Origin: Thermoanaerobaculia bacterium
GTDB taxonomy: Bacteria; Acidobacteriota; Thermoanaerobaculia; Multivoradales; UBA5704
Direction: 5' to 3'
Length of the DNA: 64,000 bases
NCBI GenBank assembly: GCA_036402955.1
Contig: DASWRX010000128.1
Location: 21,810 to 85,809 of the forward strand
The notes beneath the pieces were generated by a model, which searched no databases, was not told the origin of the DNA, and was given only the letters and a program-made list of their open reading frames with translations. The position numbers and the translations under genes are program-made. Each line of letters begins with the position of its first letter. The first letter of the stretch is position 1. Below are positions 7,502 to 32,623 of this stretch, piece by piece.

Positions 7502-7530
7502 ATTATAAACAAAGAAATTAAATTCCGCAA
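7502..7530 (-). promoter_or_regulatory. Sigma70-type promoter candidate (TTGCGG-17 nt-TATAAT) for the STAS-like gene 6981..7415
   Basis: Reverse strand reads TTGCGGaatttaatttctttgttTATAAT inside the only AT-rich island of this region (7490..7540). The -10 is at 7507..7502 and the -35 at 7530..7525. Confidence 0.5.
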
Positions 7531-7543
7531 ATCACAAAGCCGG

Positions 7544-9261: not shown

Positions 9262-9270
9262 ATCGTCCGG

Positions 9271-14356: not shown

Positions 14357-14596
14357 ATGGGACAAGTGACGCTCTACCTCGACAGTGAGACGGAAGAGAA
14401 GATGAGGATGGCGGCGAAGGCCTCAGGCGTCTCCCAGAGCCGCTGGGTGGCCGAGCTGATCCGGGAGAAGACCGCGACGGAGTGGCCCGCCTCGATCGTG
14501 CAACTGGCGGGGGCCTGGGCCGAGGACGACTTCCCGTCCCTCGACCAGATCCGGAAGGGTATTCCGCCGGACCTTCCCCGCGAGCGCTTCGACTGA
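14357..14596 (+). CDS. vapB: Type II antitoxin, ribbon-helix-helix (VapB-like)
   Basis: 79 aa. MGQVTLYLDSETEEKMRMAAKASGVSQSRWVAELI is a CopG/RHH-type N-terminus. GGAGGG precedes the ATG. The stop overlaps the PIN gene start (TGATG). Confidence 0.8.
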   Translation: MGQVTLYLDSETEEKMRMAAKASGVSQSRWVAELIREKTATEWPASIVQLAGAWAEDDFPSLDQIRKGIPPDLPRERFD

Positions 14597-14988
14597 TGTA
14601 CGTCCTCGATTCCAACTGCCTGATCTACTTCTTCAAGCGGCAGGGGAGGGTCGCCGAGAGCCTTTTGGAGGTCCCGCCCCAGGAGATCGCCATCCCCGCG
14701 GTGGCGCTTTATGAGTTGGAGACGGGAGTGGCCAAGTCCCGGTTTCCGGAGAGAAACGGCGCGCAGTTGGACGAGCTGGTCTCCCGGATCACCGTGCTCC
14801 CCTTCGGCCGCGCGGAAGCCAAGGCCGCGGCCCGGATTCGCGCCAACCTGGAACGCCAAGGGCTGCCGATCGGTCCGATCGACACCCTGATCGCGGGCAC
14901 CGCCCTGAGCCATGGCGCCATCCTCGTCACCCACAATACGGGTGAGTTTGGGCGGGTTCAGGGACTCTCCGTCGTGGACTGGTTCTAG
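14596..14988 (+). CDS. vapC: PIN-domain toxin (VapC-like)
   Basis: ORF 14482..14988 trimmed to ATG 14596 (MYVLDSNCLIYFFK...). PIN acidic residues (D5, E in LYELE, D in PIDTLIAG, THN). 1-nt overlap with vapB. Confidence 0.85.
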   Translation: MYVLDSNCLIYFFKRQGRVAESLLEVPPQEIAIPAVALYELETGVAKSRFPERNGAQLDELVSRITVLPFGRAEAKAAARIRANLERQGLPIGPIDTLIAGTALSHGAILVTHNTGEFGRVQGLSVVDWF

Positions 14989-15004
14989 GCGTCTCTCCGC
15001 AGTC

Positions 15005-15047
15005 TACGAAAGTCATCGTTGACACTACGACGATCTTCGTATATCGT
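15005..15047 (+). promoter_or_regulatory. Promoter candidate (TTGACA-17-TATCGT) embedded in an imperfect palindrome; likely BlaI-type operator
   Basis: TTGACA at 15019..15024, TATCGT at 15042..15047. Flanking imperfect inverted repeat TACGAAAGTCATCGT / ACGACGATCTTCGTA centred on the -35. The predicted TSS falls at or next to ATG 15055, and no SD precedes that ATG, so the transcript may be leaderless. Confidence 0.4.
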
Positions 15048-15054
15048 TCCCTTC

Positions 15055-15438
15055 ATGGCTGACCTGCCCCGTCCCACCGATGCCGAGCTGGCCATCCTCC
15101 GCGTGCTGTGGCGCCGCGGTCCGAGCACCGTCAAGGACGTCCACGAGGAGCTCGCCCGGAGTCTTCCGACCGGGTACACGACGACCCTGAAACAGCTTCA
15201 GATCATGGCGGAGAAGGGTCTGGTCACGCGCGACGAATCCCAGCGGGCGCACCTCTACGCGACCCGCCTGCCCGAGGAGCAGACCCAGACGCAGCTCGTG
15301 CGGGATCTGCTCGATCGGGCTTTCGAGGGCTCGGCCACGCGGCTGGTGATGCGCGCCCTCTCCTCGCGGCCGGCGGCGCCGGAGGAGCTGGCGGAGATCC
15401 GTCAACTGTTGGACCAGCTCGAAGGAGAGACGAAATGA
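15055..15438 (+). CDS. BlaI/MecI/CopY-family transcriptional repressor
   Basis: ORF 15019..15438 trimmed to ATG 15055 (MADLPRPTDAELAILRVLWRRGPSTVKDVHEEL...). Winged-helix penicillinase-repressor pattern. ATGA overlap with the downstream M56 gene. Confidence 0.85.
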   Translation: MADLPRPTDAELAILRVLWRRGPSTVKDVHEELARSLPTGYTTTLKQLQIMAEKGLVTRDESQRAHLYATRLPEEQTQTQLVRDLLDRAFEGSATRLVMRALSSRPAAPEELAEIRQLLDQLEGETK

Positions 15439-17012
15439 GCGGTATCGAGACGATCGGGACGAGCCCGGCGGCTGCGGCCGTGGCCCGCGCCCTGGTTCAC
15501 TTCCTCTGGCAGGGAGCGCTGGTGGGCGTGGTGACGGCTGGAATCCTGGTTTTCCTGGAGAAGGGGAAGGCCTCGACCCGGTACGCGGTGGCGGCCGGAG
15601 CGCTTTTCCTGATGGCGGCGTTGCCGATCGCGACCGCCTCCCGGCTCGAGATCCGCGCGGCCGGTCCGGCGGTGGCGGCGCCGGTCTCCGCGTCGGTTCC
15701 GATGGCTCCCGATCCCCTGGCGGGGACCCCCGCCGCGGACGCGGCAGGCCCGTTCACGGAGGCGCGGACGCTCGGCGTCTCCCTGCTGCCCCGGGTCTTC
15801 GCCCTCTGGCTCGCGGGAGTCGCGGCCCTCTCCCTCTATCACCTGGGCGGCTGGAGCCGGGTGCGGCGCCTGCCGCGCCAGGAGCGTCCGGCGGGGGAGG
15901 AATTGCAGGCCCTGGCGCGCACGCTCGGCCGCCGGCTGGGGATCGCCCGCGCCGTGGCTCTTCTCGAATCCGCGGCGGTCTCCGTGCCGATGGTCGTGGG
16001 CTGGCTGCGGCCCGTGGTGCTGGTCCCGGCGAGCGCCCTGGCCGGTCTCTCGCCGCGCCAGCTCGAGGCGATCCTCGCCCATGAGCTGGCCCACGTGCGA
16101 CGGCACGATTATCTGATCAACCTGCTGCAGACCGTGGTGGAGACCCTGCTCTTCTACCATCCCGCGGTCTGGTGGGTGTCGGCCCAGGTCCGGCGTGAGC
16201 GGGAGAACTGCTGCGACGACCTGGCGGTGGCCGTCTGCGGCGACCGGCTGGGTTACGCCCGGGCCCTGGCGGATCTCGAAGGCCTGCGCGCTCCCGCGTC
16301 GTCCCTGATCCTCGCCGCCTCCGGCGGCTCGCTGGTGGAGCGCATCCGCCGGCTGATCGGCGCCCCGGTCCACCAGCCCCGCCGCTCGTGGCTGGCCGGC
16401 GTCCTCGCTCTTTCCCTGCTGCCGCTGGCGGGCCTCCAGATCTCCCATGCCGCCATAGGGTCGGAACATTCGTCCGCGCAGTGGGAGCGGCCTGCCAAGG
16501 GAACGTGGTCGGCGGAGCGCCGCGGCGACCAGGTCCAGCTCCAGACCGCCATGCGCTGGAACGGCGGCCGGAGCAGTTGGAACAATTCGTTCTCTCTCCC
16601 GGCGAATCAGCTCGTCGGCCTGACCGCCGGTCCGGAGGTCCGCTTCGAGCTGCGCCGCGACGCGGGGACGTTCCGCTTCGAGGGCCGTTTCGACGGGGCC
16701 GGAGACGGATCGCAGGGCACCGGCTTCTTCACCTTCGCGGGCAATCCCGCCTACGCGAGCCAGATGGCGAGCCTCGGCTACACGGTCCCGGAAGACCGCC
16801 TCATGGAGCTCGCCCTTCACGACGTCTCGCTCGCCTTCGTCCGCGGCCTGCGGGACCTCGGCTACGCCAACCTTCCAATGGACAAGCTGGTGGAGTTCCG
16901 GATTCATCGCATCGACGGCGAGTTCGTCCGCAAGGCTGCGGCCGAAGGCCACCGGAACCTCTCGCCGGAGCAACTGGTCGAGCTGCGGATCCGGGGCCGG
17001 CTGGACCGATGA
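15435..17012 (+). CDS. BlaR1/M56-family membrane metalloprotease sensor with unrecognised C-terminal domain
   Basis: In-frame part of ORF 15108..17012 from ATG 15435 (MSGIETIG...). Several TM segments. HELAHVRRHD (HExxH) followed by YHPAVWW, typical of peptidase M56. The C-terminal about 180 aa are not a penicillin-binding domain. Confidence 0.8.
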   Translation: MSGIETIGTSPAAAAVARALVHFLWQGALVGVVTAGILVFLEKGKASTRYAVAAGALFLMAALPIATASRLEIRAAGPAVAAPVSASVPMAPDPLAGTPAADAAGPFTEARTLGVSLLPRVFALWLAGVAALSLYHLGGWSRVRRLPRQERPAGEELQALARTLGRRLGIARAVALLESAAVSVPMVVGWLRPVVLVPASALAGLSPRQLEAILAHELAHVRRHDYLINLLQTVVETLLFYHPAVWWVSAQVRRERENCCDDLAVAVCGDRLGYARALADLEGLRAPASSLILAASGGSLVERIRRLIGAPVHQPRRSWLAGVLALSLLPLAGLQISHAAIGSEHSSAQWERPAKGTWSAERRGDQVQLQTAMRWNGGRSSWNNSFSLPANQLVGLTAGPEVRFELRRDAGTFRFEGRFDGAGDGSQGTGFFTFAGNPAYASQMASLGYTVPEDRLMELALHDVSLAFVRGLRDLGYANLPMDKLVEFRIHRIDGEFVRKAAAEGHRNLSPEQLVELRIRGRLDR

Positions 17013-17066: not shown

Positions 17067-17891
17067 ATGAACATCCGAAAGCAGATCGCCGCGGCGGGGC
17101 TCGTCCTGCTGGCCGCCCTGCCGCTCGCCGCTCAAGCCGCCCCGGCCACGCCCGAGGCCAGGGCGTCCATCCTCGTCCTGGGGACCATCCACTTCGGAGG
17201 CTCCACCTCCGACGTGTTCTCCCCATCCGTGCCGGACGTCCTCTCGGAGAAGCGGCAGCGTGAGGTCGTCGAGCTGGTGGCCGCCCTGAAGCGCTACCAG
17301 CCGACCAAGATCGCCATCGAGAGCACCCCGGAGAGGATCGGCAAGATCAACGGCGAATATCAGGCCTATCTCAAGGGGGAGTACCAGCTCAAGGCGGACG
17401 AGATCGATCAGATCGCTTATCGCCTCGCCAAGGAGCTCGGCCAGCCGCGGCTCTACGGGGTGGACGCCAAGCTCGACATGGATTTCGACGGGGTCATGGC
17501 CTCGGCGGCGAAGAACGGGCAGCAGGCGATGATGGACAAGGCCATGGAGGGCGGCAAGGCCGCGGTGGCGGAGATCGGCCAGCGCCTCCAGCCGAGCACC
17601 CTGGAGCAGTTCTTCCGCTGGTTCAACTCGCCCGAGATGCTGATGGCCAACCATCGTTTCTACCTCTACGTCGCCCAGGTCGGCTCGGCGGCCGATCCCA
17701 AAGGGGCCGACGTGCTGGCCGGCTGGTACAAGCGGAACCTGCTGATCTACGGCAACCTGGTCCGCCTGATCGACTCGCCCCAGGAGCGCATCCTGCTGCT
17801 CATCGGCCAGGGGCACGCGAAGCTCCTCAGCGAGTACATCGCCGAGTCGCCCAACCTGCGGCTCGAAGAGCCGGCGAAATATCTGCCCTAA
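17067..17891 (+). CDS. Secreted DUF5694-like (TraB/GumN-like) protein
   Basis: 274 aa. Signal peptide MNIRKQIAAAGLVLLAALPLAAQA. LVLGTIHF near the N-terminus and LIGQGH near the C-terminus, as in the DUF5694/TraB-like fold. Confidence 0.65.
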   Translation: MNIRKQIAAAGLVLLAALPLAAQAAPATPEARASILVLGTIHFGGSTSDVFSPSVPDVLSEKRQREVVELVAALKRYQPTKIAIESTPERIGKINGEYQAYLKGEYQLKADEIDQIAYRLAKELGQPRLYGVDAKLDMDFDGVMASAAKNGQQAMMDKAMEGGKAAVAEIGQRLQPSTLEQFFRWFNSPEMLMANHRFYLYVAQVGSAADPKGADVLAGWYKRNLLIYGNLVRLIDSPQERILLLIGQGHAKLLSEYIAESPNLRLEEPAKYLP

Positions 17892-17966: not shown

Positions 17967-18416
17967 ATGAAAGACCAGCCGTTCCCCTTCTACGCGACCC
18001 AGATGACCGTGCGCCTGACGACTCCGGAAACGGGGGGAGGGTACGCCCTCATGGAGATGCGCCATCCCCCGGGAGTCGGACCCGCCCTGCACGTTCATCC
18101 GCGGTCCGCGGAGTCCTTCTACGTCCTGGACGGACGGTACAAGTTCTTCCGGGACGAGGAGACCGTCGAGGCAAGTCCCGGCATGGCGGTGACGATCCCC
18201 GCCGGCGTGCCCCACCGCTACGTCTCCGGTCCGGACGGCGGCCGCATCCTGGTGATGACGCCGCCGGGCCTCGAAGAATACTTCTGGACCGTCTCCAAGC
18301 TCCTCCAGAAGGGTCCCGTGTCCATGGACGAGGAGTTCGCCATCGCGGCCCGGCTCGGCCAGGAGTTTCTGGATGGGCATGGGCACTGGGGCGGGCACGC
18401 GGCGCCGATTTCGTAG
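17967..18416 (+). CDS. Cupin domain protein
   Basis: 149 aa. Cupin motifs PALHVHPRSAESFYVLDG and IPAGVPHRY. Confidence 0.8.
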   Translation: MKDQPFPFYATQMTVRLTTPETGGGYALMEMRHPPGVGPALHVHPRSAESFYVLDGRYKFFRDEETVEASPGMAVTIPAGVPHRYVSGPDGGRILVMTPPGLEEYFWTVSKLLQKGPVSMDEEFAIAARLGQEFLDGHGHWGGHAAPIS

Positions 18417-18510: not shown

Positions 18511-18616
18511 CGGGTCAACCGATCCCGGTTTGCTCCGGACAGCGCACTTCTAAGGGTGGAGCCCTGCTCCGCCGCGTTTCATGGGGGAGCGCGGCCTCCA
18601 GAGAGGAGACTCGACG

Positions 18617-18832
18617 ATGAGAAAGCTCGATCTCATTCGCGCCTGGAAAGATCCGGTCTACCGCTCCAGTCTGTCCGCCGAGGAGCGGGCGCAGCTCCCC
18701 GGCCATCCGTCGGGGATCATCGAGATCACGGACGAGCACCTCCAGGTGACCTCAGGCGGGACCACGACGGCTCCGATGTGCACGATCTACACGTACAATC
18801 ACTTCCGGTATTGCTGCCCGACGACCGCGTAG
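18617..18832 (+). CDS. lanA: Class II lanthipeptide precursor 1 (lichenicidin/mersacidin-type leader)
   Basis: ORF 18581..18832 trimmed to ATG 18617 (GAGGAG upstream). Leader MRKLDLIRAWKDPVYRSSLSAEERAQLPGHPSGIIEITDEHLQVTSGG ends in a double-Gly site. Core TTTAPMCTIYTYNHFRYCCPTTA (7 Thr, 3 Cys). Confidence 0.85.
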   Translation: MRKLDLIRAWKDPVYRSSLSAEERAQLPGHPSGIIEITDEHLQVTSGGTTTAPMCTIYTYNHFRYCCPTTA

Positions 18833-18859
18833 GCCGCAGCTCACCCGAGGAGTAGCGAC

Positions 18860-19063
18860 ATGAACAAGACCGACGTCATCCGCGCCTGGAAAGACCCCCT
18901 CTACCGCGCCCGTCTGAGCCGGGAGGAGGCTTCCGGACTGCCGACGCACCCGTCCGGCGTCATCGATCTGGAGGAGAAGCAGCTCCAGTGGGCGGCGGGC
19001 GGGGTCCGGACCACGTACAGGACCTGCACGGTGTATACGAGCCGAGTCGGCTGCTGCCCGTAG
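18860..19063 (+). CDS. lanA: Class II lanthipeptide precursor 2
   Basis: 67 aa, GAGGAG upstream. Leader MNKTDVIRAWKDPLYRARLSREEASGLPTHPSGVIDLEEKQLQWAAGG. Core VRTTYRTCTVYTSRVGCCP (5 Thr, 1 Ser, 3 Cys). Leader and core scaffold are paralogous to precursor 1. Confidence 0.85.
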   Translation: MNKTDVIRAWKDPLYRARLSREEASGLPTHPSGVIDLEEKQLQWAAGGVRTTYRTCTVYTSRVGCCP

Positions 19064-19068
19064 GCACG

Positions 19069-22000
19069 GTGGCCGATCCCGTTTCCGCCTGGCGTGCGCT
19101 CGCTCTCGCCGAGCGGGCGCACGCGCCGCGCCCCGAGGGCACGGCCAAATCCGACGAGCTCGCCCGTTTCCGCCTCGGGCAGTGGCGGGATCTCTCCCCG
19201 TTCCGGTCGGGGGATGCGCTCGCCCGCCGGCTGGCGGACGAGGGGCTCGATGAATCAACCTTCGAGCGGCTGCTGGCCGAACCCGCGGAGGCGGTGGGGG
19301 AGCGTCTGCCCCAGCCTCCCCAATGGTTTTCCGAGCTGACGGCGGCCCCCGCCGGGTCGCCGCCGGAGGCGGAGCCGCTGCCCCTGCCGCCGGCTCTGCG
19401 AGACGATCCGGGGGCCGGCTTTCTCGAGCTGATCCGGCCCTGGATCGAGAGAGCGCGCGCGCGGCTTCGCGAAGGGATCGGGACGATCTGCCGCGAGCGG
19501 AAGCCGCCGTTCACCGCGGAGGAGGCGGAGCGGCTGCTGAGCGAGCCGTTCGCCTTCCAGCTTCTGCCGCTCCTGTCGCGGACGCTGGTGCTGGAGCTGA
19601 ACGTGGCCCGGCTCCAGGAGCTGCTGGCCGGCGACACGGCGGAGGAGCGCTTCGCCTCCTTCGTCGACCGGCTGCGCAAGCCGGAGGTCGCCGCGGCGAT
19701 CCTCGACGAGTATCCGGCCCTCGCCCGCCTGGCGATCGAGGAGCTGGATGCCTGGGTGGTGGTCTCGCTCGAGCTGCTGGGCCGGTTGGCGGCGGACTGG
19801 CCGGAGCTGGTGGCGACCTTCTTCGGCGGCCGGAATCCCGGCCCTCTGAAGGCGCTCGGCGGCGGCGCCGGCGACCGCCACCGCGGCGGCCGGGCGGTGC
19901 GCATCCTGGAGTTCGCTTCCGGCGCCAGGCTCGCCTACAAGCCGCGCTCCATGGCCGTCGACGCGCACTTCCAGGAGCTCCTCGCCTGGATCGAGACGAA
20001 GGACCGCGGGCTCTCCTTCCGCCGGCTGAGGGTGCTCGACCGTCGGGACTATGGCTGGATGGAGTACGCCGAGCCCAAGGGGTGCGCCTGCGAGGAGGAG
20101 GTGGCGATCTACCACCGGCGCCTTGGCGGTCTGCTCGCCCTGCTCTACGCCCTCGAAGCCACGGATTGCCATTACGAGAACCTCATCGCGGCCGGCGGGC
20201 ATCCCGTCGTGGTCGATCTCGAATCGCTGTTCCATCCCCGCTGGGAGGTCGAGGGCCCACCGATGCCGGACGAGCGGCTGGCGGGCGAGGCGCTGGCGGA
20301 GTCGGTGTTGCGGATCGGGCTGCTTCCCTTCCAGGTCGGCGAGGGGGTGGACGCGGTGGATCTGAGCGGCGTCGCGTCGGTCGCCGGCCAGCCCACGCCG
20401 CAGCCGGTGATGCAGTGGCGGGGGATCGGCACCGACGAGATGCGGGTCGTGCGCGAGCGGGTGGCGATGGAAGGGGGGAGCAACCGCCCGTCTCTCGACG
20501 GCCGGGAGATCGAGGCCGCGGAGTTCACGAACGAAATGGCGGACGGGTTCTCCCGCGTCTACCGCCTGCTGGTCCGGCATCGGGCGGAGCTGCTCGCCTT
20601 TCTGGACCGCTTCGCGGACGATCCCGTGCGGGCGGTGCTGCGGCCGACCCGGGTCTATGGCCTGCTGCTCTCCGAGAGCTTCCATCCCGACGTGCTGCGG
20701 GACGCTCTCGACCGCGATCTCCTCTTCGACCGTCTCTGGGTGGGGATCGACGAGCAGCCGGTGCTGGCGCGGGCGATCCCCGCCGAGCATCGCGACCTGC
20801 GCGCCGGGGACATCCCGGCCTTCCAGGCCCGCCCCTCCTCCGTCGACGCCTGGACGAGCCGGGGAGAGCGCCTGCCCGGGTTCTTCCTGGAGCCCGCGAT
20901 CGTCACCGCACGCCGGCGCATCGAGCGTATGGGCGAGGACGATCTGCGGCGGCAGCTCGCGCTGCTCCGCCTCTCCCTCGGCACCCAGCTCCTCAACCGC
21001 GACGACGTGGGCTGGACCGGCTACGCCGAGACCGACCCGGGCCTGCCGCTCGGGCCGGACGGGCGGCGCGAGCGCATGATCGAGGCCGCTCGGAAGGTGG
21101 GGGAGTGGTTCGAATCCATGGCGCTGCGCGACGGCCGGTACGCCACCTGGATCGGCCTCGACTACCGCAACCAGTACTGGTCGCTGGTGCCGATGCCGGA
21201 GGATCTCTACGCCGGTCTCCCGGGGGTGGCCCTCTTCCTGGGCTATCTCGGTGCGATGACCGGTCGAAAACCCCATAGAAAGCCTGGTGATGACGGTGGG
21301 AAGCGCTTCACGGCTCTCGCCCGGGCGGCGCTGGAGAGCCTGCTCGCCCGCCATCCTACCGTTCCGGATGGAAAAAATGGGAAGGATGGCGGCGACGACT
21401 CCCGCCTCTCCATCGGCGCCTTCACCGGCTGGGGCGGCCTCCTCTACACCGTGGCCCATCTCGGATCGCTCTGGCGGGACCCGGCGCTCTTCGCGGCGGG
21501 GGAGCGGATGGCCGAGCGCATCCTTCCCCGGATCGACGGCGATGAGGAGATCGACGTGGTCGGCGGCTCGGCGGGAGCCATCTTCGGCCTGCTCGCCCTG
21601 CACCGCGCGTCCGGCTCGCGCCGGGCGCTGGAGGTGGCGGTCCGCTGTGGCGAGCATCTGCTGGCTCGCTCGCACGCCGCGGGCGCCGGGCTGGCATGGC
21701 TGACCCATCTCGCGTCCGAGCGGCCGCAGATCGGCTTCTCCCACGGCAACGCCGGCATCGGCGCGGCCCTGGCGGCGCTGGGCGCGGCGTCGGGAGAGGC
21801 CCGTTTCCTGGCGGCGGGCCTCGCGGCCTTCGACTGGGAGCGGGAGGCGTTCTGGCCCACGGTGCGCGGCTGGCTGGCCGGCGAGGGGGGGCAGCCGCCG
21901 CCCGAGAGCGCGGTGGCGATCGCCTGGTGCTACGGCGCTCCGGGCGTCGCCATGGCCCGGATGATCGCCCTTCCCCACGTCCGCGACCGGGAGGTGCGGC

Positions 22001-22350
22001 AGGCCCTGACGGAGGAGGTGAGGGAGGCGATCTCGATGACGTACGCCCGCGGCTTCGGCGAGAACCACTGCCTCTGTCACGGCGATCTCGGGAACTTCGA
22101 CTTCCTGCTCCAGGCGCGGTTGGAGCTGAAGAATCCGAACCTGGACGTCCTTTCCGCCTGGCACATCCAGAAGACCCTCGCCAGCATCGAGCGGGACGGC
22201 TGGCTCTGCGGCACGCGGGGAGGCGTCGAGTCGCCGGCGCTGATGAACGGCTTCGCGGGCATCGGCTACGGGTTGCTACGCCTCGCCGAGCGCCGGCGGG
22301 TGCCCTCCGTGCTCGCCCTCCAGCCCCCGGTCAGACGCCGATCCTTCTGA
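19069..22350 (+). CDS. lanM: Class II lanthipeptide synthetase LanM (dehydratase + LanC-like cyclase)
   Basis: ORF 18988..22350 trimmed to in-frame GTG 19069, just after the lanA2 stop. N-terminal SAWRALALAER. Kinase-like dehydratase motif ATDCHYENLIAAGGHPVVVDLESLF. C-terminal cyclase Zn-ligand motifs AWCYGAPG and CLCHGDLGN. The start codon is uncertain (no clear SD). Confidence 0.9.
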   Translation: MADPVSAWRALALAERAHAPRPEGTAKSDELARFRLGQWRDLSPFRSGDALARRLADEGLDESTFERLLAEPAEAVGERLPQPPQWFSELTAAPAGSPPEAEPLPLPPALRDDPGAGFLELIRPWIERARARLREGIGTICRERKPPFTAEEAERLLSEPFAFQLLPLLSRTLVLELNVARLQELLAGDTAEERFASFVDRLRKPEVAAAILDEYPALARLAIEELDAWVVVSLELLGRLAADWPELVATFFGGRNPGPLKALGGGAGDRHRGGRAVRILEFASGARLAYKPRSMAVDAHFQELLAWIETKDRGLSFRRLRVLDRRDYGWMEYAEPKGCACEEEVAIYHRRLGGLLALLYALEATDCHYENLIAAGGHPVVVDLESLFHPRWEVEGPPMPDERLAGEALAESVLRIGLLPFQVGEGVDAVDLSGVASVAGQPTPQPVMQWRGIGTDEMRVVRERVAMEGGSNRPSLDGREIEAAEFTNEMADGFSRVYRLLVRHRAELLAFLDRFADDPVRAVLRPTRVYGLLLSESFHPDVLRDALDRDLLFDRLWVGIDEQPVLARAIPAEHRDLRAGDIPAFQARPSSVDAWTSRGERLPGFFLEPAIVTARRRIERMGEDDLRRQLALLRLSLGTQLLNRDDVGWTGYAETDPGLPLGPDGRRERMIEAARKVGEWFESMALRDGRYATWIGLDYRNQYWSLVPMPEDLYAGLPGVALFLGYLGAMTGRKPHRKPGDDGGKRFTALARAALESLLARHPTVPDGKNGKDGGDDSRLSIGAFTGWGGLLYTVAHLGSLWRDPALFAAGERMAERILPRIDGDEEIDVVGGSAGAIFGLLALHRASGSRRALEVAVRCGEHLLARSHAAGAGLAWLTHLASERPQIGFSHGNAGIGAALAALGAASGEARFLAAGLAAFDWEREAFWPTVRGWLAGEGGQPPPESAVAIAWCYGAPGVAMARMIALPHVRDREVRQALTEEVREAISMTYARGFGENHCLCHGDLGNFDFLLQARLELKNPNLDVLSAWHIQKTLASIERDGWLCGTRGGVESPALMNGFAGIGYGLLRLAERRRVPSVLALQPPVRRRSF

Positions 22351-22409
22351 CAGCCCCGGATCCGGCGGTATACTCCCCCGCGTCTGATTTCATCCTACGG
22401 AGACCCTTC

Positions 22410-23474
22410 ATGAACAAGCCGGCAGCTCTCATCAGTCTCGTCGCGGGCCTCGCGCTCGCTCCCTCCCTCCCCGCGCACGGCGCGGCAACCGCCAAGGCCA
22501 CGGCCCCGGCGAAAGGCGGCGGCTACCACGTCGCCAAGGAGATCGCGATCGGTGGCGAGGGAGGATGGGACTACCTGGCCGCGGACTCCGCGACGCGGCG
22601 GCTCTACGTCTCGCACTCGAACAAGGTGGAGGTGGTCGACCTCGACAGCGGCAAGAAGGTGGGGGAGATCCTGAACCTTTCGGGGGTCCACGGCATCGCC
22701 GTGGCGAGCGACCTCAACCGCGGCTTCATCAGCAACGGCAAGAGCTCGACGGTGACCATTTTCGATCTCAAGACGCTCGGCACCGTGGGCGAGGTCAAGT
22801 CCACGGGCGAGAACCCGGACGCCATCCTCTACGATCCCTACTCCCACCAGGTCTTCGCCTTCAACGGCCGGTCGGGTGACGCGACGGTGATCGACGGCAA
22901 GACGGGCAAGGTCGCGGGCACGATCAAGCTCGGCGGCAAGCCGGAGTTCGCCACCACCGACCTCGCCGGCAAGGTCTTCGTCAACATCGAGGACAAGAGC
23001 GAGGTCGTGGAGCTCGGCGCCAAGGACCTGGCGGTCAAGGCGCGCTGGCCGCTGGCGCCCTGCGAATCGCCGTCCGGCATGGCGATCGACCGTAAGCATC
23101 ACCGGCTGCTGATCGGCTGCGAGAACAAGATGGCGGCCGTGATGAGCACCGACAACGGCAAGGTGGTCACCACCGTCCCGATCGGCCAGGGGGTGGACGC
23201 CAACGGCTTCGATCCCGGCACGGGTCTCGGCTTCAGCTCGAACGGCGAGGGCACGCTGACCGTCATCCGCGAGGAGACGCCCGACCGCTTCACGGTGGTC
23301 GAGAACGCCCCCACGCGCAAGGGCGCGCGCACCATGGCGCTCGACGAGAAGACGCACAGCGTCTATCTCTCCAGCGCCCAGTACGGCCCGGCGCCCGCTC
23401 CCACCAAGGAGCAGCCGCGCCCGCGGCCGACCGTGCTGCCGAACACCTTCACGATCCTCGTCGTCAGCCAGTAG
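22410..23474 (+). CDS. Secreted YncE/YVTN-type beta-propeller repeat protein
   Basis: In-frame part of ORF 21696..23474 from ATG 22410 (MNKPAALISLVAGLALAPSLPAHG signal). Repeated blade pattern (GGWDYLAADSATRRLYVSH, GVHGIAVASDLNRGFISN, NPDAILYDPYSHQVFAFN, and others). Confidence 0.8.
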   Translation: MNKPAALISLVAGLALAPSLPAHGAATAKATAPAKGGGYHVAKEIAIGGEGGWDYLAADSATRRLYVSHSNKVEVVDLDSGKKVGEILNLSGVHGIAVASDLNRGFISNGKSSTVTIFDLKTLGTVGEVKSTGENPDAILYDPYSHQVFAFNGRSGDATVIDGKTGKVAGTIKLGGKPEFATTDLAGKVFVNIEDKSEVVELGAKDLAVKARWPLAPCESPSGMAIDRKHHRLLIGCENKMAAVMSTDNGKVVTTVPIGQGVDANGFDPGTGLGFSSNGEGTLTVIREETPDRFTVVENAPTRKGARTMALDEKTHSVYLSSAQYGPAPAPTKEQPRPRPTVLPNTFTILVVSQ

Positions 23475-23504: not shown

Positions 23505-24821
23505 CTATCCCTGCGGTCCCCGGATCAGCTTCCCGTACTTGAGCGGCTGGCCGGTCTCCCAGGGGCGGTACTGGTTGCAGAAGTCGATGCGCTCGCCGAG
23601 CGGCGGGTGATCGGAGCGCCAGAGCTTGTAGAGCAGGCCGGGCCGGGGCACGCTCAGGTTCTCCTGCTGGAGCTTGGCGAAGGCCGTACCGCAGTCGTGG
23701 TTGTCCCGCGTGATCTCCAGGCCGAAGCGGTCCGCCTCGTGCTCGACGTGGCGGCCGACCGCCAGGATCACCGGCGACAGCGCCAGCGAGACCATGGCGA
23801 ACAGCAGCATCACGAGCGGCACCGAGGCCACGTCCGACAGCTCGTGGAAGCCGAACCGGTCGCCGAAGCGCTCGATCAGCCCGCCCGCCGTCAGTTGGAT
23901 CACCCACAGCCCGAAGAGGATGAGGGCGGAGCCCAGGGCGACGAGCTGGTAGGTGTGGCCGAGCACATAGTGCCCCATTTCGTGGCCCATCACGAAGAGC
24001 ACCTCCGGCTCGTCGAGCTTGGCCAGGATGGTGTCCCAGAGCACGATCCGCTTGGTGCCCCCGAGGCCCGTGACGTAGGCGTTGACCGTCTTGGTATCGA
24101 CGCTCTTGTTGACCTCGTAGACGCGGCTCCCCTCGATGCCCGCGCGGTCGGCGAGAGCGAGGATCCGCGTCTCCAGCGTCTTGTTCTTCATCGGCCCGAA
24201 ATCGTTGAACAGCGGCTCCACCCAGATCGGCGTGACGAAGAGGATGAACACCAGCAGGGGGATCGAGGCGAGCCCCGTATAGAGCCACCAGCGCCGGGGG
24301 CTCTTGTGCAGCAGCAGGTAGGGGAACCAGAGCGTGAGCGCGAGGAAGACGCAGGCGATCAGCAGCCCCTTGATCTCGTCGCCCCACCACTTGGCCGCCG
24401 TCTGGCTCGACAGGCCGTAGGCGTGCTGGCGCACGAACCCCGCGTACCAGCCGAGCGGCAGGTCGAGGACGAAGGTGACCGCGGCAAAGAAGACGGCGTA
24501 GACGGCGACCGTCCCCAGCCAGTTGCGGCCGATCCGGCGGGCCGCGTCGCGCAGGCGGGCCGAGAGCCCCGTGAACAGCAGGAGGGCCGGCACCAGCAGG
24601 CCCCAGAGCGTGTCGATCCCCCACAGCACGTTGCCGGAGCGGTAGTAGCGCAGCGCCTTCTCGCTCGGCGCCGCCACCGCGACCGGCGCGCCCGAGGGGG
24701 CCGCCGGAGCGGAGGCGGCCGGTGCCGCAGCAGGGGCCGCCGGAGCGGATTGCGCCGAGGCGAAAGGAGCGAGGCCGCAGGCCAGCGCGAGGGTCAGAAC
24801 GGCGGGAACGGCGATGCGCAT
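23505..24821 (-). CDS. M48-family (Ste24/HtpX-like) membrane zinc metallopeptidase
   Basis: 438 aa. Signal/anchor, multiple TM segments, VMGHEMGHYVLGH (HExxH) and a downstream E in HEADRFG. Confidence 0.85.
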   Translation of the reverse strand: MRIAVPAVLTLALACGLAPFASAQSAPAAPAAAPAASAPAAPSGAPVAVAAPSEKALRYYRSGNVLWGIDTLWGLLVPALLLFTGLSARLRDAARRIGRNWLGTVAVYAVFFAAVTFVLDLPLGWYAGFVRQHAYGLSSQTAAKWWGDEIKGLLIACVFLALTLWFPYLLLHKSPRRWWLYTGLASIPLLVFILFVTPIWVEPLFNDFGPMKNKTLETRILALADRAGIEGSRVYEVNKSVDTKTVNAYVTGLGGTKRIVLWDTILAKLDEPEVLFVMGHEMGHYVLGHTYQLVALGSALILFGLWVIQLTAGGLIERFGDRFGFHELSDVASVPLVMLLFAMVSLALSPVILAVGRHVEHEADRFGLEITRDNHDCGTAFAKLQQENLSVPRPGLLYKLWRSDHPPLGERIDFCNQYRPWETGQPLKYGKLIRGPQG

Positions 24822-25177: not shown

Positions 25178-26845
25178 TCAAGTCCCTGTTGCTGCCGCCC
25201 TTTCCAAAATCACCCCGAAGTCCGTGCCCGCGGGCAGCGTTCCGAAGGCCCGGCCGCCGTCTCCGGCCAGGCGGCTGGCGCAGAAGGCGTCGGCGACGTC
25301 CGCGGGGGCGTGGCGCACGAGCAGCGAGGCCTGGAGGGCCAGGGCCAGCCGCTCCACCAGGCGGCGGGCCCGCGCCTCCAGGTCCTCGGGCCTTTCGAGA
25401 TGGGACTGGAGCTCGTTGACGTAGATGTCCAGCCGGTGGTCGGACCCTTGAGCCTCGCGGATCTCGGCGAGCAGCGCCCGCAGCGACTCGGGGGTCTTCT
25501 GGATCGCCCGCAGCACGTCGAGGCACTGGACGTTCCCCGATCCTTCCCAGATCGAGTTGAGCGGCGCCTCGCGGTACAGCCGCGCCAGGCCCCACTCCTC
25601 CACGTAGCCATTGCCTCCCAGGCACTCCAGCGCCTCGGCGGCGTGGACCGGCGCGCGCTTGCAGGTCCAGTATTTGAGGACGGCCGTCGCCAGCCGCCGG
25701 AACGGGGTCTCCTCAGCATCATAGGCACGGGCGAGCCGCATCATGGCCGTCGTGGCGGCCTCGGATTCCAGGGCGAGATCGGCGAGCACGTTGCGCATCA
25801 GCGGCTGGTCGAGCAGGCGCTTGCCGAACGTCCGGCGGTGCGTGGCGTGGTGGATCGCCCGCGCTGTTCCCCAGCGCATGCCGGCGGCGGCGCCGATCAC
25901 GCAGTCGAGCCGCGTGTGGTTCACCATCTCCAGGATGGTCTGCACGCCCCGCCCCTCCTCTCCCACCAGGCGCGCCCAGGCGGCGCGGAATTCCACCTCG
26001 CTGGAGGCGTTCGAGCGGTTGCCGAGCTTGTCCTTGAGCCGCTGGAGGTGGAAGCGGTTGCGCTCGCCGTCCGGCGTGAAGCGGGGGAGAAGGAAGCAGG
26101 AGAGTCCCCCCGCAGCCTGGGCCAGCACGAGAAAGGCGTCGCACATCGGCGCCGAGCAGAACCACTTGTGGCCGGTGATCTCGTACCCGGCGCCCGGCCC
26201 TCCGGCGCCAACCGGCCACGCCGCCGTGGTGTTGGCCCGCACGTCCGAGCCCCCCTGCTTCTCGGTCATCGCCATGCCGCAGAGGGCGCCCGCCTTTTCG
26301 GTGGCCGGCACGAGCCGCGGATCGTAGACCGTGGAGGTGACGCGCGGCTCCCATTCCGCCGCGATCTCCGGCTGGAGGCGCAGGGCGGGCACCACCGAAT
26401 AGGTCATCGAGAGCGGGCATCCCACGCCGGCCTCCACCTGGGCGAGCGCCATGAACTGCGCCGCCCGCGCCACGTGGAGTCCATTGCGGGGGTCCCGCGG
26501 CTCGCGCCAGGGCAGGGCGTGGAGCCCGTGCTCCACCCCGAGCGCCATCAGCGCGTGCCACGCGGGGTGGAACTCCACCTCGTCGATCCGGTTGCCGTTG
26601 CGGTCGTGGGTGTGCAGCACAGGCGGATGCTCGTTCGCCTGAGCTCCCCAGAGAATCGTCTCCCGCCGCCCCGCGATCTCCCCGAAATCCCTTGCCCGCT
26701 CCTCGGCCCACCCCGCGCCCTCGCGCCGCAGCGCCTCGGTCAGCACCCGGTCGGAGGTGAAGAGGTTCACGTCCTCGAACGGCGGCGGCTGGTTGAAGAC
26801 GGTGTGGGTGGCGCGATTTCCGGGCAGGGTGGTCGGCTCAGGCAT
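25178..26845 (-). CDS. aidB: AidB-like acyl-CoA dehydrogenase family protein
   Basis: 555 aa. Collinear with E. coli AidB as I remember it: HTVFNQPPP, VEFHPAWHALM, GMAMTEKQGGSDV, LKDKLGNRSNASSEVEF, NSIWEGSGNV. Confidence 0.9.
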   Translation of the reverse strand: MPEPTTLPGNRATHTVFNQPPPFEDVNLFTSDRVLTEALRREGAGWAEERARDFGEIAGRRETILWGAQANEHPPVLHTHDRNGNRIDEVEFHPAWHALMALGVEHGLHALPWREPRDPRNGLHVARAAQFMALAQVEAGVGCPLSMTYSVVPALRLQPEIAAEWEPRVTSTVYDPRLVPATEKAGALCGMAMTEKQGGSDVRANTTAAWPVGAGGPGAGYEITGHKWFCSAPMCDAFLVLAQAAGGLSCFLLPRFTPDGERNRFHLQRLKDKLGNRSNASSEVEFRAAWARLVGEEGRGVQTILEMVNHTRLDCVIGAAAGMRWGTARAIHHATHRRTFGKRLLDQPLMRNVLADLALESEAATTAMMRLARAYDAEETPFRRLATAVLKYWTCKRAPVHAAEALECLGGNGYVEEWGLARLYREAPLNSIWEGSGNVQCLDVLRAIQKTPESLRALLAEIREAQGSDHRLDIYVNELQSHLERPEDLEARARRLVERLALALQASLLVRHAPADVADAFCASRLAGDGGRAFGTLPAGTDFGVILERAAATGT

Positions 26846-26936: not shown

Positions 26937-27998
26937 ATGGCGATTCGGGAAGGCGCTTGGGACTGCCCGGTCTGCGGGCGCGAACGAAACCGCGGACCCG
27001 AGAAGTTCTGCGGCGGCTGCGGCTCGCCCCGCGGTCCCGAGGTCGAGTTCTACCTGCCGGAGGACGCTCCCGAGGTCACCGACGCCGAGGCCGTGAAGCG
27101 GGCGGGCGCAGGGCCGGACTGGATCTGCCCCTACTGCCAGGCGGACAACGCGGACGCCAACGCTTTCTGCTCCGGTTGCGGCGCTCCCCGCGACGGCGCG
27201 AAGACGCGCCAGGTCACCGAGCAGAGATTCGACGCCGCCCCGCAGCCGGTAGCCGCTCCGCAGCCGCTGAAAGACGGCGGCTCGCGCCTCCAGGAGGGGC
27301 TCGGCCTCGGCTGCCTCGGCCTGATCGCCCTGGTGGCCCTCGTCGCGTTCCTCGGCCGCGCCAAGCCCACGACGCTCACGGTCACCGGCTTTCACTGGAT
27401 GCGGACGATCGCGGTGGAGCAACTCCGTCCGGTCGAGGAGCAGGCCTGGGAGGGCGAGGTCCCGAGCGGAGCCCGCGTTCTCGGGAGCAGCCGGGAGGTC
27501 CATCACGTCGATCACATCCAGATCGGCAGCGAGACGCGGACCCGCGACATCACCGAGCGGGTGCAGACCGGCTCGCAACGGGTCAAGGTCGGCACCCGCA
27601 ACCGCGGCAACGGCTATTTCGAGGACATCTACGAGGACCGGCCCACTTACGAGAACCGTACGCGCCAGGAGACCTATCAGCAGCCGGTCTACCGCGATCA
27701 GCCCGTCTACCGGCAGCGCATCCGCTACGAGATCGAGAAGTGGATGCCCGACCGGGTGGCCCAGGCCGAAGGGAGGGCCCATGCGGCCGCCTGGCCCGAT
27801 CCCCAACTCGGGTCCCAGGAGCGGGGCGGCAAGCGCACCGAAGCCTACGAGATCCTCTTCCGGACCGCCGAGGGAAGGCCCATCACCTACAAGGTGCTGA
27901 ACGAACAGGTCTGGAGCAGCTTCGAATTGGGACGGAGCTACAAGGGAAAGGTCTACGACAGTGGGGAGGTGGCGGAGGTGGCGAAGGGCGGCAGCTAG
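26937..27998 (+). CDS. Membrane protein with two N-terminal zinc-ribbon motifs; function unknown
   Basis: 353 aa, AGGAG upstream. CPVCG..CGGCG and CPYCQ..CSGCG. One TM segment (LGLGCLGLIALVALVAFL). The C-terminal domain is unrecognised. Confidence 0.7.
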   Translation: MAIREGAWDCPVCGRERNRGPEKFCGGCGSPRGPEVEFYLPEDAPEVTDAEAVKRAGAGPDWICPYCQADNADANAFCSGCGAPRDGAKTRQVTEQRFDAAPQPVAAPQPLKDGGSRLQEGLGLGCLGLIALVALVAFLGRAKPTTLTVTGFHWMRTIAVEQLRPVEEQAWEGEVPSGARVLGSSREVHHVDHIQIGSETRTRDITERVQTGSQRVKVGTRNRGNGYFEDIYEDRPTYENRTRQETYQQPVYRDQPVYRQRIRYEIEKWMPDRVAQAEGRAHAAAWPDPQLGSQERGGKRTEAYEILFRTAEGRPITYKVLNEQVWSSFELGRSYKGKVYDSGEVAEVAKGGS

Positions 27999-31241: not shown

Positions 31242-31271
31242 GCGATTCCTGATCCTTACAGCGGCGGTCCC

Positions 31272-32492: not shown

Positions 32493-32623
32493 GGGATCTC
32501 CCCGGGAGTCCTCTGCGAGAGCAGAGAGACGAAATACGTGCTCCCACCACAAAAGTTGCGGCTCGCCCCGGGTATTCCCAAGGGCGGCCGCCAGGCGGGA
32601 AGATGAGCTGCCTGATCTCAGTG

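What the first reader, a model, noticed from the sequence alone, without database searches (positions are those of the whole stretch)
18617..22350. Compact class II lanthipeptide locus: two tandem precursors plus one LanM, with no transporter, protease or immunity genes nearby
Seen directly: two small genes with good SDs encode peptides with paralogous leaders (IRAWKDPxYR...LPxHPSGxI(E/D)...QxxxGG). They have Thr/Cys-rich cores. A roughly 1090-aa protein follows immediately, with the LanM dehydratase motif (DCHYENLIA...VVVDLE) and LanC-type Zn ligands (WCYGAPG, CHG). From memory, the leader type matches the lichenicidin/haloduracin/mersacidin-like class II family. Unusual points: no C39-peptidase ABC transporter (LanT), LanP, LanFEG or regulator within at least 10 kb either side. 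The flanking genes are a cupin and a beta-propeller. The host looks like a GC-rich Gram-negative lineage from which few lanthipeptides have been characterised. The products are probably new chemical entities.
Basis: partly seen in the sequence, partly recalled or inferred. Interest (0 to 1): 0.8.

Follow-up and report, generated by a model that had tools for sequence, protein, structure and literature searches.

The report
Transporter-less lanthipeptide cassette in Thermoanaerobaculia
This is a real but fairly ordinary gene set for making two small ring-containing (lanthionine) peptides in an uncultured soil acidobacterium; its entire clade of relatives keeps the same peptide core yet carries no linked export/cleavage gene.

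Summary
Two small genes (18617-18832, 18860-19063) match the mersacidin/lichenicidin leader model. The next gene (19069-22350, 1093 aa) is a full LanM with all dehydratase and zinc-cyclase residues. No C39 peptidase or ABC ATPase lies anywhere in the 64 kb.

The host is a Thermoanaerobaculia (Acidobacteriota) bacterium. Comparison with 80 related loci adds three points.

- The lanA-lanM cassette is inherited vertically. LanM is 78% identical to its closest relative and the syntenic flanks are 78-89% identical. The small genes are under purifying selection.
- 0 of 31 loci of this LanM clade have a C39 transporter within about 10 kb, against 35 of 50 outgroup loci.
- 39 of 40 clade precursors carry one conserved core module, TT-x3-CT-x2-(T/S)-x4-6-CC. 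Outgroup cores are hypervariable.

The GG site with hydrophobic -4/-7/-12 residues still looks like a C39 substrate, so cleavage and export by an unlinked factor is the likeliest route. This was not shown.

None is conserved across the clade.

Verdict: a new, uncharacterised member of a known kind, of moderate interest.

The parts
18542..18570 (+). Conserved upstream element GCGCAC-N10-GGAGC-N3-GCTCC, a perfect 5-bp inverted repeat. It is a putative promoter-proximal operator or 5'-leader hairpin of the cassette.
   Evidence: It is aligned and invariant 60-80 nt upstream of the first lanA in 9 related subclade-A loci plus the window, although the upstream genes differ. It is absent upstream of lanA in all other loci. 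It occurs once in the 64-kb window. The stem never varies, so RNA structure and protein-binding site cannot be told apart.
18604..18608 (+). Shine-Dalgarno AGGAG for lanA1, 8 nt before the ATG.
   Evidence: Read directly from the sequence.
18617..18832 (+). lanA1 precursor, 71 aa. Leader is 18617-18760 (48 aa, ends ...QVTSGG). Core is 18761-18829, TTTAPMCTIYTYNHFRYCCPTTA (23 aa, 7 Thr, 3 Cys).
   Evidence: TIGR03898 at 69.6 bits, cutoff 23.5. Orthologues of 66-84% identity exist in other metagenomes. dN/dS is 0.23 against L006.
18860..19063 (+). lanA2 precursor, 67 aa. Leader is 18860-19003 (48 aa, ends ...QWAAGG). Core is 19004-19060, VRTTYRTCTVYTSRVGCCP (19 aa, 5 Thr, 1 Ser, 3 Cys).
   Evidence: TIGR03898 at 53.8 bits. 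Orthologues are present in L006, L005, L008 and L057. Core dN/dS is 0.12.
19069..22350 (+). lanM, a class II lanthipeptide synthetase of 1093 aa with a GTG start 5 nt after the lanA2 stop. The dehydratase domain spans about 19711-20829 (aa 215-587). The LanC-like cyclase spans about 21190-22314 (aa 708-1082).
   Evidence: TIGR03897 at 853.6 bits; Pfam DUF4135 plus LANC_like. The best solved relatives are LicM2 6ST5 (1e-113) and CylM 5DZT. Catalytic residues align to CylM K274, D347, H349, N352, D364, E366, R506 and T512. The Zn ligands are C954, C1003 and H1004.

Best explanation
This is a functional minimal class II lanthipeptide cassette (lanA1-lanA2-lanM) of a Thermoanaerobaculia bacterium.

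Proposed mechanism:
1. The two precursors are translated from one transcript. That transcript probably starts downstream of the conserved GCAC...GGAGC-N3-GCTCC element.
2. LanM binds their shared mersacidin/lichenicidin-type leader.
3. The N-terminal kinase-like domain phosphorylates core Thr/Ser and eliminates phosphate, giving dehydrobutyrine or dehydroalanine.
4. The zinc-dependent C-terminal LanC-like domain adds the three core Cys thiols to these, forming up to three (methyl)lanthionine rings per peptide.

The invariant positions of the clade-wide module are T1, T2, C6, T7, T/S10, C17 and C18. These suggest a small N-terminal ring (T1 or T2 to C6) followed by two nested or crossed rings (T7 and T/S10 to the C-terminal CC).

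The leader ends in GG with hydrophobic residues at -4, -7, -12 and -15. Removal, and export across the diderm envelope, is therefore most likely done by a C39-type peptidase/ABC transporter or another protease encoded elsewhere in the genome.

Shown here: gene identities, intact catalytic residues, purifying selection, vertical inheritance, and clade-wide absence of a linked transporter. Inferred: ring pattern, trans-acting cleavage and export, and bioactivity.
For: - Family models for all three genes score above trusted cutoffs.
- Every dehydratase residue known from CylM, plus the CHG-type Zn site and the SHG histidine, is conserved. They are invariant across 12 clade members.
- LicM2 of the lichenicidin system is the closest solved structure.
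- 39 of 40 clade precursors carry the same core module, in 50 copies with 7 invariant positions.
- dN/dS is below 1 in leaders and cores.
- LanM (78%) and the syntenic flanking genes (78-89%) diverge in step with the closest relative L006, so the cassette is old and vertically kept.
- Both window leaders have GG with T/A(-4), L(-7), I/L(-12) and I/V(-15). This is the LahT/ComA recognition pattern described in PMC10885120.
- A related Thermoanaerobaculia LanM, ThaM, is 45% identical over its first 399 aa. It was shown to dehydrate and cyclise a precursor with the same leader type in E. coli (PMC13083261).
Against: - There is no biochemical or expression data for this locus.
- No C39/ABC gene exists in the 64 kb or in any of the other 30 clade loci.
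- The orthologue of the PCAT linked to sister-group clusters was not found on the contigs of the three complete clade genomes, by contig-length match only. The trans-PCAT step is therefore unsupported.
- Several clade precursors have AA or AG instead of G at -2. A C39 domain may not accept that.
- The ring topology is a guess from invariant positions.
Confidence: 0.7

Rival explanations
1. The peptides serve the producer itself, for example as a signal, a structural or developmental peptide, or a protease inhibitor. They are not exported antibiotics. No dedicated transporter or immunity system is then needed, and any export uses general machinery.
For: - 0 of 31 clade loci have a linked PCAT, and none has a conserved immunity-type neighbour.
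- The core is strongly conserved across the clade while outgroup cores are hypervariable. This fits one conserved target.
- Inheritance is vertical at a fixed chromosomal site.
- Many genomes keep two paralogous cassettes.
- The only characterised Thermoanaerobaculia class II peptide was reported as an elastase inhibitor, not an antibiotic (PMC13083261).
- A review-type statement says that lanthipeptides of Acidobacteria, Cyanobacteria and Chloroflexi seldom show antimicrobial activity (PMC10027976).
Against: - This is purely circumstantial.
- The leaders retain the double-glycine-type export and cleavage signature.
- Sister clusters with the same core module do carry a PCAT, and in L085 a MacB/MFP/OEP set as well. 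The ancestral peptide was therefore exported.
- Conserved cores also occur in true antibiotics, such as the lipid II-binding motifs.
Confidence: 0.25
2. LanA1 and LanA2 are the two halves of a synergistic two-component lantibiotic of the lichenicidin, haloduracin, cytolysin or roseocin type. A single LanM modifies both.
For: - Two distinct core types co-occur in most subclade-A loci: the TTA-x2-CT...CCP type and the TT(Y/F)(R/K)TCT...GCC type. These loci are the window, L003, L005, L006, L007, L019 and L046.
- Single-LanM two-peptide systems are known, namely cytolysin, carnolysin, bicereucin and roseocin (PMC10027976).
- The leader belongs to the family that contains lichenicidin.
Against: - The two cores are paralogues built on the same module. 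They are not a globular alpha plus an elongated beta peptide.
- Neither core has the CTxTxEC lipid II motif.
- Related loci carry one precursor (L008, L024), three (L023) or a single precursor with two fused modules (L010-L013, L015, L017, L020, L021, L030).
- There is no immunity gene.
Confidence: 0.15
3. The cassette is a decaying remnant of a once complete cluster. It lost its transporter and no longer yields a mature product.
For: Sister clusters with the same core module have a PCAT immediately after lanM (L048, L084, L085, L087). The transporter-less state is therefore derived.
Against: - All catalytic residues are intact and invariant in 12 clade LanMs.
- The tiny precursor genes are under purifying selection.
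- The cassette is retained in at least 31 loci with 50-78% LanM identity, which implies long-term maintenance.
- A conserved upstream cis element is preserved.
Confidence: 0.05

Closest known systems
ThaA/ThaM/ThaO and TheA/TheM/TheO class II systems of Thermoanaerobaculia (Nature 2026, PMC13083261)
   Same: - Same bacterial class and same leader family: ThaA begins MKKQQVIRAWKDEEY...SGG and is 45% identical to LanA1 over 69 aa.
- ThaM is 45% and TheM 40% identical to this LanM over their first 399 aa.
- The ThaA core CSGICTYGGWPTCFCC shares the S/T-x-x-C-T...CC skeleton.
   Different: - The tha and the clusters encode a GMC oxidoreductase that makes a thiazole from the Cys following GG. The window has no GMC enzyme, and its cores start with Thr or Val, not Cys.
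- The tha cluster has ABC and C39 genes. This locus has none.
- This LanM belongs to a separate clade (50-78% identity within it).
Lichenicidin (LicA1/A2, LicM1/M2, LicT, LicP) and mersacidin systems of Bacillus
   Same: - Precursors hit the same NCBIfam leader model TIGR03898.
- LicM2 (PDB 6ST5) is the closest solved structure to this LanM, at 1e-113.
- The Zn site is CHG-type.
   Different: - Those systems have one LanM per peptide (lichenicidin), a PCAT, a second protease and LanFEG immunity. None of these is here.
- The alpha and mersacidin cores carry the CTxTxEC lipid II motif, which is absent here.
- The hosts are Gram-positive.
Sister-group clusters with the same core module plus PCAT (L085, L087, L048, L084; uncultured bacteria including Eisenbacteria and Limnocylindrales)
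   Same: - Same leader.
- Same core module, for example TTNLACTMYSFRGWGSCCP and TTAMTCTEYTFTGFRRCCPK.
- LanM is 45-53% identical.
   Different: They keep a C39-ABC transporter directly after lanM. L085 also has MacB/FtsX, an MFP and an outer-membrane factor. The window clade has lost all of these from the locus.
Prochlorosin-type systems (ProcM with many unlinked ProcA) of marine cyanobacteria
   Same: It is a Gram-negative host with one LanM acting on more than one precursor. Maturation and export functions are not all encoded next to lanM (my own knowledge of the prochlorosin literature).
   Different: - ProcM has a CCG Zn site and Nif11/NHLP leaders with hypervariable cores.
- Here the site is CHG, the leader is the short mersacidin type and the core is conserved.

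Membership tests
Class II lanthipeptide biosynthetic locus | A bifunctional LanM with an N-terminal dehydratase domain and a C-terminal LanC-like cyclase domain | tested here: met
   TIGR03897 at 853.6 bits (cutoff 304). Pfam DUF4135 covers aa 215-587 and LANC_like covers aa 708-1082.
Class II lanthipeptide biosynthetic locus | Catalytic residues of the kinase-like/elimination site and the Zn-binding Cys-Cys-His site are intact | tested here: met
   K291, D366, H368, N371, D383, E385, R521 and T527 align to CylM K274, D347, H349, N352, D364, E366, R506 and T512. C954, C1003, H1004 and H892 are present. All are invariant in 12 homologues.
Class II lanthipeptide biosynthetic locus | Adjacent precursor gene(s) with a leader and a Ser/Thr/Cys-rich core | tested here: met
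   lanA1 and lanA2 lie directly upstream. Their cores hold 7 and 6 Ser/Thr, and 3 Cys each.
Class II lanthipeptide biosynthetic locus | Core is actually dehydrated and cyclised to (methyl)lanthionine | not testable with these tools
   This needs co-expression and mass spectrometry. Expected masses were computed.
Class II lanthipeptide biosynthetic locus | Linked C39-peptidase ABC transporter (LanT/PCAT). This feature is typical, not obligatory. | tested here: not met
   No C39 or ABC domain is present in the 64 kb by Pfam on the main ORFs or by local HMM on all six-frame ORFs. The count is 0 of 31 clade loci against 35 of 50 outgroup loci.
[quoted passage not shown] | Leader matches the family HMM above the trusted cutoff | tested here: met
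   69.6 and 53.8 bits against a cutoff of 23.5.
Mersacidin-like lipid II binders | Core motif C-T-x-T/S-x-E-C | tested here: not met
   The cores TTTAPMCTIYTYNHFRYCCPTTA and VRTTYRTCTVYTSRVGCCP contain no Glu and no such motif.
Two-component lantibiotics of the lichenicidin/haloduracin type | Two dissimilar peptides (alpha with a lipid II motif, an elongated beta), each with its own LanM | tested here: not met
   There is a single LanM in the 64 kb. The two cores are paralogues built on one module.
Prochlorosin-type promiscuous systems | CCG Zn-ligand motif, Nif11/NHLP leader and hypervariable cores | tested here: not met
   The motif is CLCHG, the leader is TIGR03898-type and the core module is conserved in 39 of 40 precursors.
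Tha/The thiazole-lanthipeptides | A GMC-family oxidoreductase in the cluster and Cys directly after the GG site | tested here: not met
   No GMC domain is found in any scanned ORF of the window. The residues after GG are T and V.

The most novel reading that the evidence does not exclude
A whole clade of Thermoanaerobaculia has kept for a long time a vertically inherited lanA-lanM cassette. It was stripped of transporter, protease and immunity genes and has its own conserved regulatory element. It encodes one conserved tricyclic module, sometimes duplicated in tandem within one precursor. On this reading the lanthipeptide has been domesticated for an endogenous role, such as a signal, an envelope or developmental factor, or a protease inhibitor. 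Alternatively it leaves the cell by a route not yet known for lanthipeptides in diderm bacteria.
Probability: 0.2. Interest if true: 0.65.

Novelty: new member of a known kind. Interest (0 to 1): 0.4.

Why it matters
Lanthipeptides from Acidobacteriota are almost unexplored; one class II and one class III system were characterised in 2026. This locus is a compact, easily synthesised entry point of three genes and about 3.8 kb. It gives access to a core family that is widespread in soil Thermoanaerobaculia: more than 100 LanM cluster representatives share at least 50% identity. No structure or activity is known for that family.

The contrast with sister clusters is a clean natural experiment. 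The sister clusters have the same core module plus a PCAT, while this clade has no linked PCAT. That allows a direct test of how diderm bacteria cleave and export lanthipeptides, and of whether such peptides can have non-antibiotic roles.

For annotation, the locus is standard. Public pipelines already name its homologues LanM and mersacidin/lichenicidin family lantibiotic.

Tried and rejected
1. GG-site erosion as a correlate of transporter loss. GG at the aligned -2/-1 position occurs in only 7 of 40 clade precursors against 55 of 69 outgroup precursors. However, most clade sites are GA or GS, or become so after a one-residue shift, and these are PCAT-compatible. PCAT-linked sister loci show SGL or SGV there. 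I dropped the claim.

2. The RND pump (28029-32687) as a dedicated exporter. It is syntenic in L006, and another RND pump abuts the cassette in L016. The two pumps are only about 30% identical, so they are paralogues. RND pumps are near only 3 of 31 loci. This is not supported.

3. The M48, BlaR1, cupin and beta-propeller genes as cassette members. They are shared only with the nearest relatives as ordinary synteny and are absent from the rest of the clade.

4. A relocated cognate PCAT. I searched with the L084 PCAT. About 45 orthologues have at least 52% identity. None matches the contig lengths of the complete clade genomes. More distant PCATs fall outside the 120 listed hits, so the result is inconclusive.

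5. Sigma-70 promoter and terminator consensus scan of 17.8-23.6 kb. It found nothing upstream of lanA1 and only a promoter-like site at 22347-22374 before the propeller gene.

6. RNA structure in the 5' region. RNAalifold found only the invariant GGAGC/GCTCC hairpin and no informative covariation. Rfam found nothing there.

7. Word-indexed homologue search with LanA1. It returned only 8 hits because the query is short. Precursors were recovered by six-frame regex instead.

8. Literature search for the core strings. It found no relevant paper.

Full report
**1. What is in the sequence**

The window is 69.9% G+C. Two small genes lie on the plus strand at 18617-18832 and 18860-19063. Each is preceded by an AGGAG-type ribosome-binding site. 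They encode peptides of 71 and 67 aa with near-identical 48-aa leaders (M..D.IRAWKDP.YR..LS.EE...LP.HPSG.I......LQ...GG). The cores are short and rich in Thr and Cys: TTTAPMCTIYTYNHFRYCCPTTA and VRTTYRTCTVYTSRVGCCP.

[quoted passage not shown] Pfam has no model for them.

A 1093-aa ORF starts five bases after the lanA2 stop, at GTG 19069, and runs to 22350. An in-frame GTG at 18988 would overlap lanA2. It does not fit the N-termini of homologues or the independent ENA gene call. The protein scores 853.6 bits on TIGR03897 (LanM, cutoff 304). It contains Pfam DUF4135 (aa 215-587) and LANC_like (aa 708-1082).

**2. Is the enzyme intact?**

The closest solved structures are LicM2 of the lichenicidin system (6ST5, E = 1e-113) and CylM (5DZT). 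In the HMMER alignment to CylM the residues map as follows.

| CylM residue | This LanM | Motif here |
|---|---|---|
| K274 | K291 | YKPR |
| D347 / H349 / N352 | D366 / H368 / N371 | TDCHYEN |
| D364 / E366 | D383 / E385 | VVVDLE |
| R506 / T512 | R521 / T527 | VRAVLRPT |

That these CylM residues are the phosphorylation and elimination residues comes from my knowledge of the CylM and LctM literature. The alignment itself is the tool result.

In the cyclase domain the GFSHG histidine (H892), WCYGAPG (C954) and CLCHG (C1003, H1004) are present. This makes it a 'CHG-type' zinc site. All of these positions are invariant in an alignment of 12 clade members with 51-79% identity. The enzyme therefore looks fully competent.

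**3. Host and relatives**

LanM has more than 1,600 homologues in the protein collection. The best ~120 share 49-80% identity. Where they are named, they come from Thermoanaerobaculia, Acidobacteriota or Candidatus Polarisedimenticolia MAGs.

A scan of one genome per species returned 80 loci. Thirty of them, with LanM at least 50% identical, come from Thermoanaerobaculia or unclassified Acidobacteriota. The rest share 41-48% identity and come from Cyanobacteria, Pyrinomonadaceae, Blastocatellia, Acidobacteriaceae, Planctomycetota, Chloroflexota and others.

A neighbour-joining tree on p-distances groups the Thermoanaerobaculia sequences into four subclades:
- A: the window, L003, L005-L009, L019, L023 and L046.
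- B: L010-L018, L020, L021, L028, L030, L047 and L083.
- C: L025, L026 and L063.
- A small L022/L024 branch.

Two non-acidobacterial sequences, L048 (Eisenbacteria) and L084 (Limnocylindrales), branch among these subclades.

Several genomes carry two cassettes from different subclades. Examples are OY970330.1, OY970373.1, JBJMHA, DASUEN, CAVQIV and JAXDKS.

**4. The cassette is old and vertically inherited**

The closest relative is L006, on a 1.98-Mb contig. The window shares with it a radical-SAM gene (83% aa identity), an SNF2 helicase (88%), the cupin (82%), lanA1 (82%), LanM (78%), the beta-propeller (84%), the M48 protease (78%) and the RND pump (89% and 78%), all in the same order. L005, L007, L008 and L019 share parts of this neighbourhood.

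LanM therefore diverges in step with its neighbours. Its codon-position G+C (GC3 = 0.90) matches theirs. Nothing suggests recent transfer.

Nei-Gojobori dN/dS against L006 is 0.23 for lanA1 (leader 0.15, core 0.44). For lanA2 it is 0.66 in the leader and 0.12 in the core. The counts are small, but all values are below 1, as expected for real genes.

**5. No transporter, across the whole clade**

Pfam scans of 37 ORFs across the window found no Peptidase_C39, no ABC_membrane and no significant ABC_tran. The only ABC_tran match was a weak P-loop hit in a GTPase.

I built HMMs of the C39 domain and of the full PCAT from seven outgroup transporters. Pfam had confirmed the C39 + ABC_membrane + ABC_tran architecture of all seven. 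I searched every six-frame ORF of at least 50 aa in all loci with these HMMs.
- A C39 domain was found in 35 of 50 outgroup loci, usually directly downstream of lanM.
- It was found in 0 of 31 clade loci, including the whole 64-kb window. Fisher p = 2.7e-11.
- The loci are phylogenetically related, so this p-value overstates independence.

All-against-all clustering of flanking ORFs found no family other than LanM and LanA shared across the clade. The transporter-less, protease-less, immunity-less state is thus a property of the lineage and not an accident of this contig.

The state is derived. More distant clusters with the same kind of core keep a PCAT right after lanM (L048, L084, L085, L087). 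L085 also has a MacB/FtsX pair, an ABC ATPase, a membrane-fusion protein and an outer-membrane factor. That is a complete diderm export set.

**6. A conserved core module**

All 80 loci use the same leader family, but outgroup cores are hypervariable. In contrast, 39 of the 40 clade precursors contain the module TT-x3-C-T-x-x-(T/S)-x4-6-C(G)C, usually followed by Pro. There are 50 copies in all.

In the 43 copies of the commonest length, seven positions are invariant: T1, T2, C6, T7, T/S10, C17 and C18. The consensus is TTA(P/I)(T/N)CT(E/N)YTF(N/L)N(W/F)R(S/G/A)CC.
- LanA1 fits the module exactly (TTAPMCTIYTYNHFRYCC).
- LanA2 is a version with a shorter loop (TTYRTCTVYTSRVGCC).
- LanA1-type orthologues from other metagenomes conserve even the C-terminal P-x-TT(A/T/V) tail.
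- In subclade B a single precursor carries two modules in tandem, for example ...TTAPNCTNYTFLNWRSCCPPITTAINCTEYTFNSAAGCCPTTA.

Three invariant Cys and four invariant hydroxy residues suggest three thioether rings. I propose T1 or T2 to C6, and T7 and T/S10 to the CC pair. This is inference only.

No paper in the searchable library contains these core strings.

**7. Leader cleavage**

Both window leaders end in GG with T/A at -4, L at -7, I/L at -12 and I/V at -15. This is the pattern recognised by C39 domains such as LahT and ComA (PMC10885120).

Across the clade the aligned site is mostly GA, GS or GG. Four precursors have AG or AA. PCAT-linked sister loci show SGL or SGV at that position. 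I therefore do not read the variation as evidence for or against a C39 enzyme.

A search with the L084 PCAT found about 45 orthologues of at least 52% identity. None matches the contig lengths of the three complete clade genomes. Whether an unlinked PCAT exists therefore remains the main open point.

According to the same review, about one third of more than 20,000 lanthipeptide clusters lack an in-cluster protease. The situation is not exceptional in itself.

**8. Neighbours in the window**

| Coordinates | Strand | Gene |
|---|---|---|
| 14482-14988 | + | PIN-domain gene |
| 15055-15438 | + | BlaI-family repressor |
| 15435-17012 | + | BlaR1/M56 sensor-protease |
| 17067-17891 | + | DUF5694 protein |
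| 17967-18416 | + | Cupin_2 protein |
| 22410-23474 | + | YncE-like beta-propeller with a hydrophobic N-terminal stretch that looks like a signal peptide (by eye), and its own promoter-like site at 22347-22374 |
| 23505-24821 | - | Ste24-like M48 membrane protease |
| 25178-26845 | - | AidB |
| 26937-27998 | + | Zinc-ribbon protein |
| 28029-32687 | - | AcrB/MFP pump |

None of these is conserved with the cassette beyond the nearest relatives. The RND pump that abuts the cassette in L016 is only about 30% identical to the window's pump. I treat all of them as bystanders.

**9. A cassette-specific cis element**

The window and nine other subclade-A loci share a conserved stretch 60-80 nt upstream of the first lanA: GCAC(C/T)(C/T)T...GGAGC-N3/4-GCTCC. 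The genes upstream differ between loci (cupin, DUF5694, FKBP and others). The element occurs once in the window, at 18542-18570. It is absent upstream of lanA in all other loci.

The stem is invariant, so covariation cannot distinguish an RNA hairpin from a dimeric-regulator operator. Rfam has no match there.

**10. Comparison with known systems**

The nearest characterised relatives are ThaA/ThaM/ThaO and TheA/TheM/TheO from Thermoanaerobaculia (PMC13083261).
- The leader type is the same: ThaA is 45% identical to LanA1.
- ThaM and TheM are 45% and 40% identical to this LanM over their first 399 aa.
- ThaM makes two lanthionine rings. A GMC oxidase makes a thiazole from the Cys that follows GG.
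- The modified ThaA fragment inhibits neutrophil elastase at 2.6 uM.
- The tha cluster has C39 and ABC genes.

The window has no GMC enzyme, no Cys after GG and no transporter. It is therefore a different product family made by the same kind of machinery.

It is not a mersacidin-like lipid II binder, because it lacks the CTxTxEC motif. It is not a lichenicidin-type two-component system, because it has one LanM and paralogous cores. It is not prochlorosin-like, because it has a CHG site, a short leader and a conserved core.

**11. Verdict**

The finding is real and correctly interpreted. It is a new, uncharacterised member of a well-known kind. Public pipelines already label its homologues correctly.

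The comparative picture raises it above routine. It shows a conserved tricyclic core module, clade-wide loss of the linked transporter, vertical inheritance and a private upstream element. Together these make a specific, testable question about maturation, export and function of lanthipeptides in diderm Acidobacteriota. Interest is 0.4.

Noticed in passing
window 55931-56011 (-): A c-di-GMP-I riboswitch (Rfam RF01051, 52.5 bits, gathering score 35) lies at the 5' end of a gene with two AhpC/TSA-redoxin domains (54689-55984, minus strand). A PilZ-domain methyltransferase-like protein (47488-50760), a response regulator with an HD_5 (HD-GYP-like) domain (46363-47463) and a hybrid histidine kinase (50762-53371) are nearby. 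This looks like a c-di-GMP signalling neighbourhood.
   Followed up: no
L010-L013, L015, L017, L020, L021, L030 (about 9.1-9.9 kb in each locus; L013 at 3.8-4.1 kb): In a sister subclade (LanM about 57% identical) the single precursor carries two copies of the core module in tandem, joined by PP(I/A). An example is TTAPNCTNYTFLNWRSCCPPITTAINCTEYTFNSAAGCCPTTA. It could give a six-ring bimodular peptide or two peptides from one precursor.
   Followed up: partly
L085 4310-16256: This is a complete diderm version of the cluster. It has two lanA genes with the same core module, lanM, a C39-ABC transporter, two MacB/FtsX permeases, an ABC ATPase, a membrane-fusion protein and an outer-membrane factor in a row.
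   Followed up: partly
window 14357-17012 (+): A small ORF plus a PIN-domain gene looks like a VapBC-type toxin-antitoxin pair. A BlaI-family repressor and a BlaR1/M56 sensor-protease pair follow it directly. BlaI is 86-88% identical in L008 and L019, but the sensor is only 56-67% identical.
   Followed up: no
window 4356-9741: A cytochrome P450 (5474-6853, minus strand), an O-methyltransferase with a dimerisation domain (4356-5636, minus strand), a radical-SAM protein (7969-9261, plus strand) and a double CDGSH iron-sulfur protein (9271-9741, minus strand) lie 9-14 kb upstream. They may form a separate small tailoring or biosynthetic group. The radical-SAM gene is syntenic in L006.
   Followed up: no
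window 23505-24821 (-); L005 4042-5406; L008 12695-14050: A full-length Ste24-like M48 protease (Peptidase_M48_N + M48) lies convergent to the cassette. In L005 and L008 it directly abuts lanM. In L007 and L019 it is about 6 kb away, and it is absent from the other clade loci. It is probably plain synteny, but it is the only protease repeatedly close to subclade-A cassettes.
   Followed up: partly
genomes OY970330.1, OY970373.1, JBJMHA01, DASUEN01, CAVQIV01, JAXDKS01 (loci L015/L055, L021/L025, L005/L016, L030/L046, L019/L083, L007/L063): Many Thermoanaerobaculia genomes carry two paralogous transporter-less lanA-lanM cassettes from different subclades at distant chromosomal sites.
   Followed up: partly
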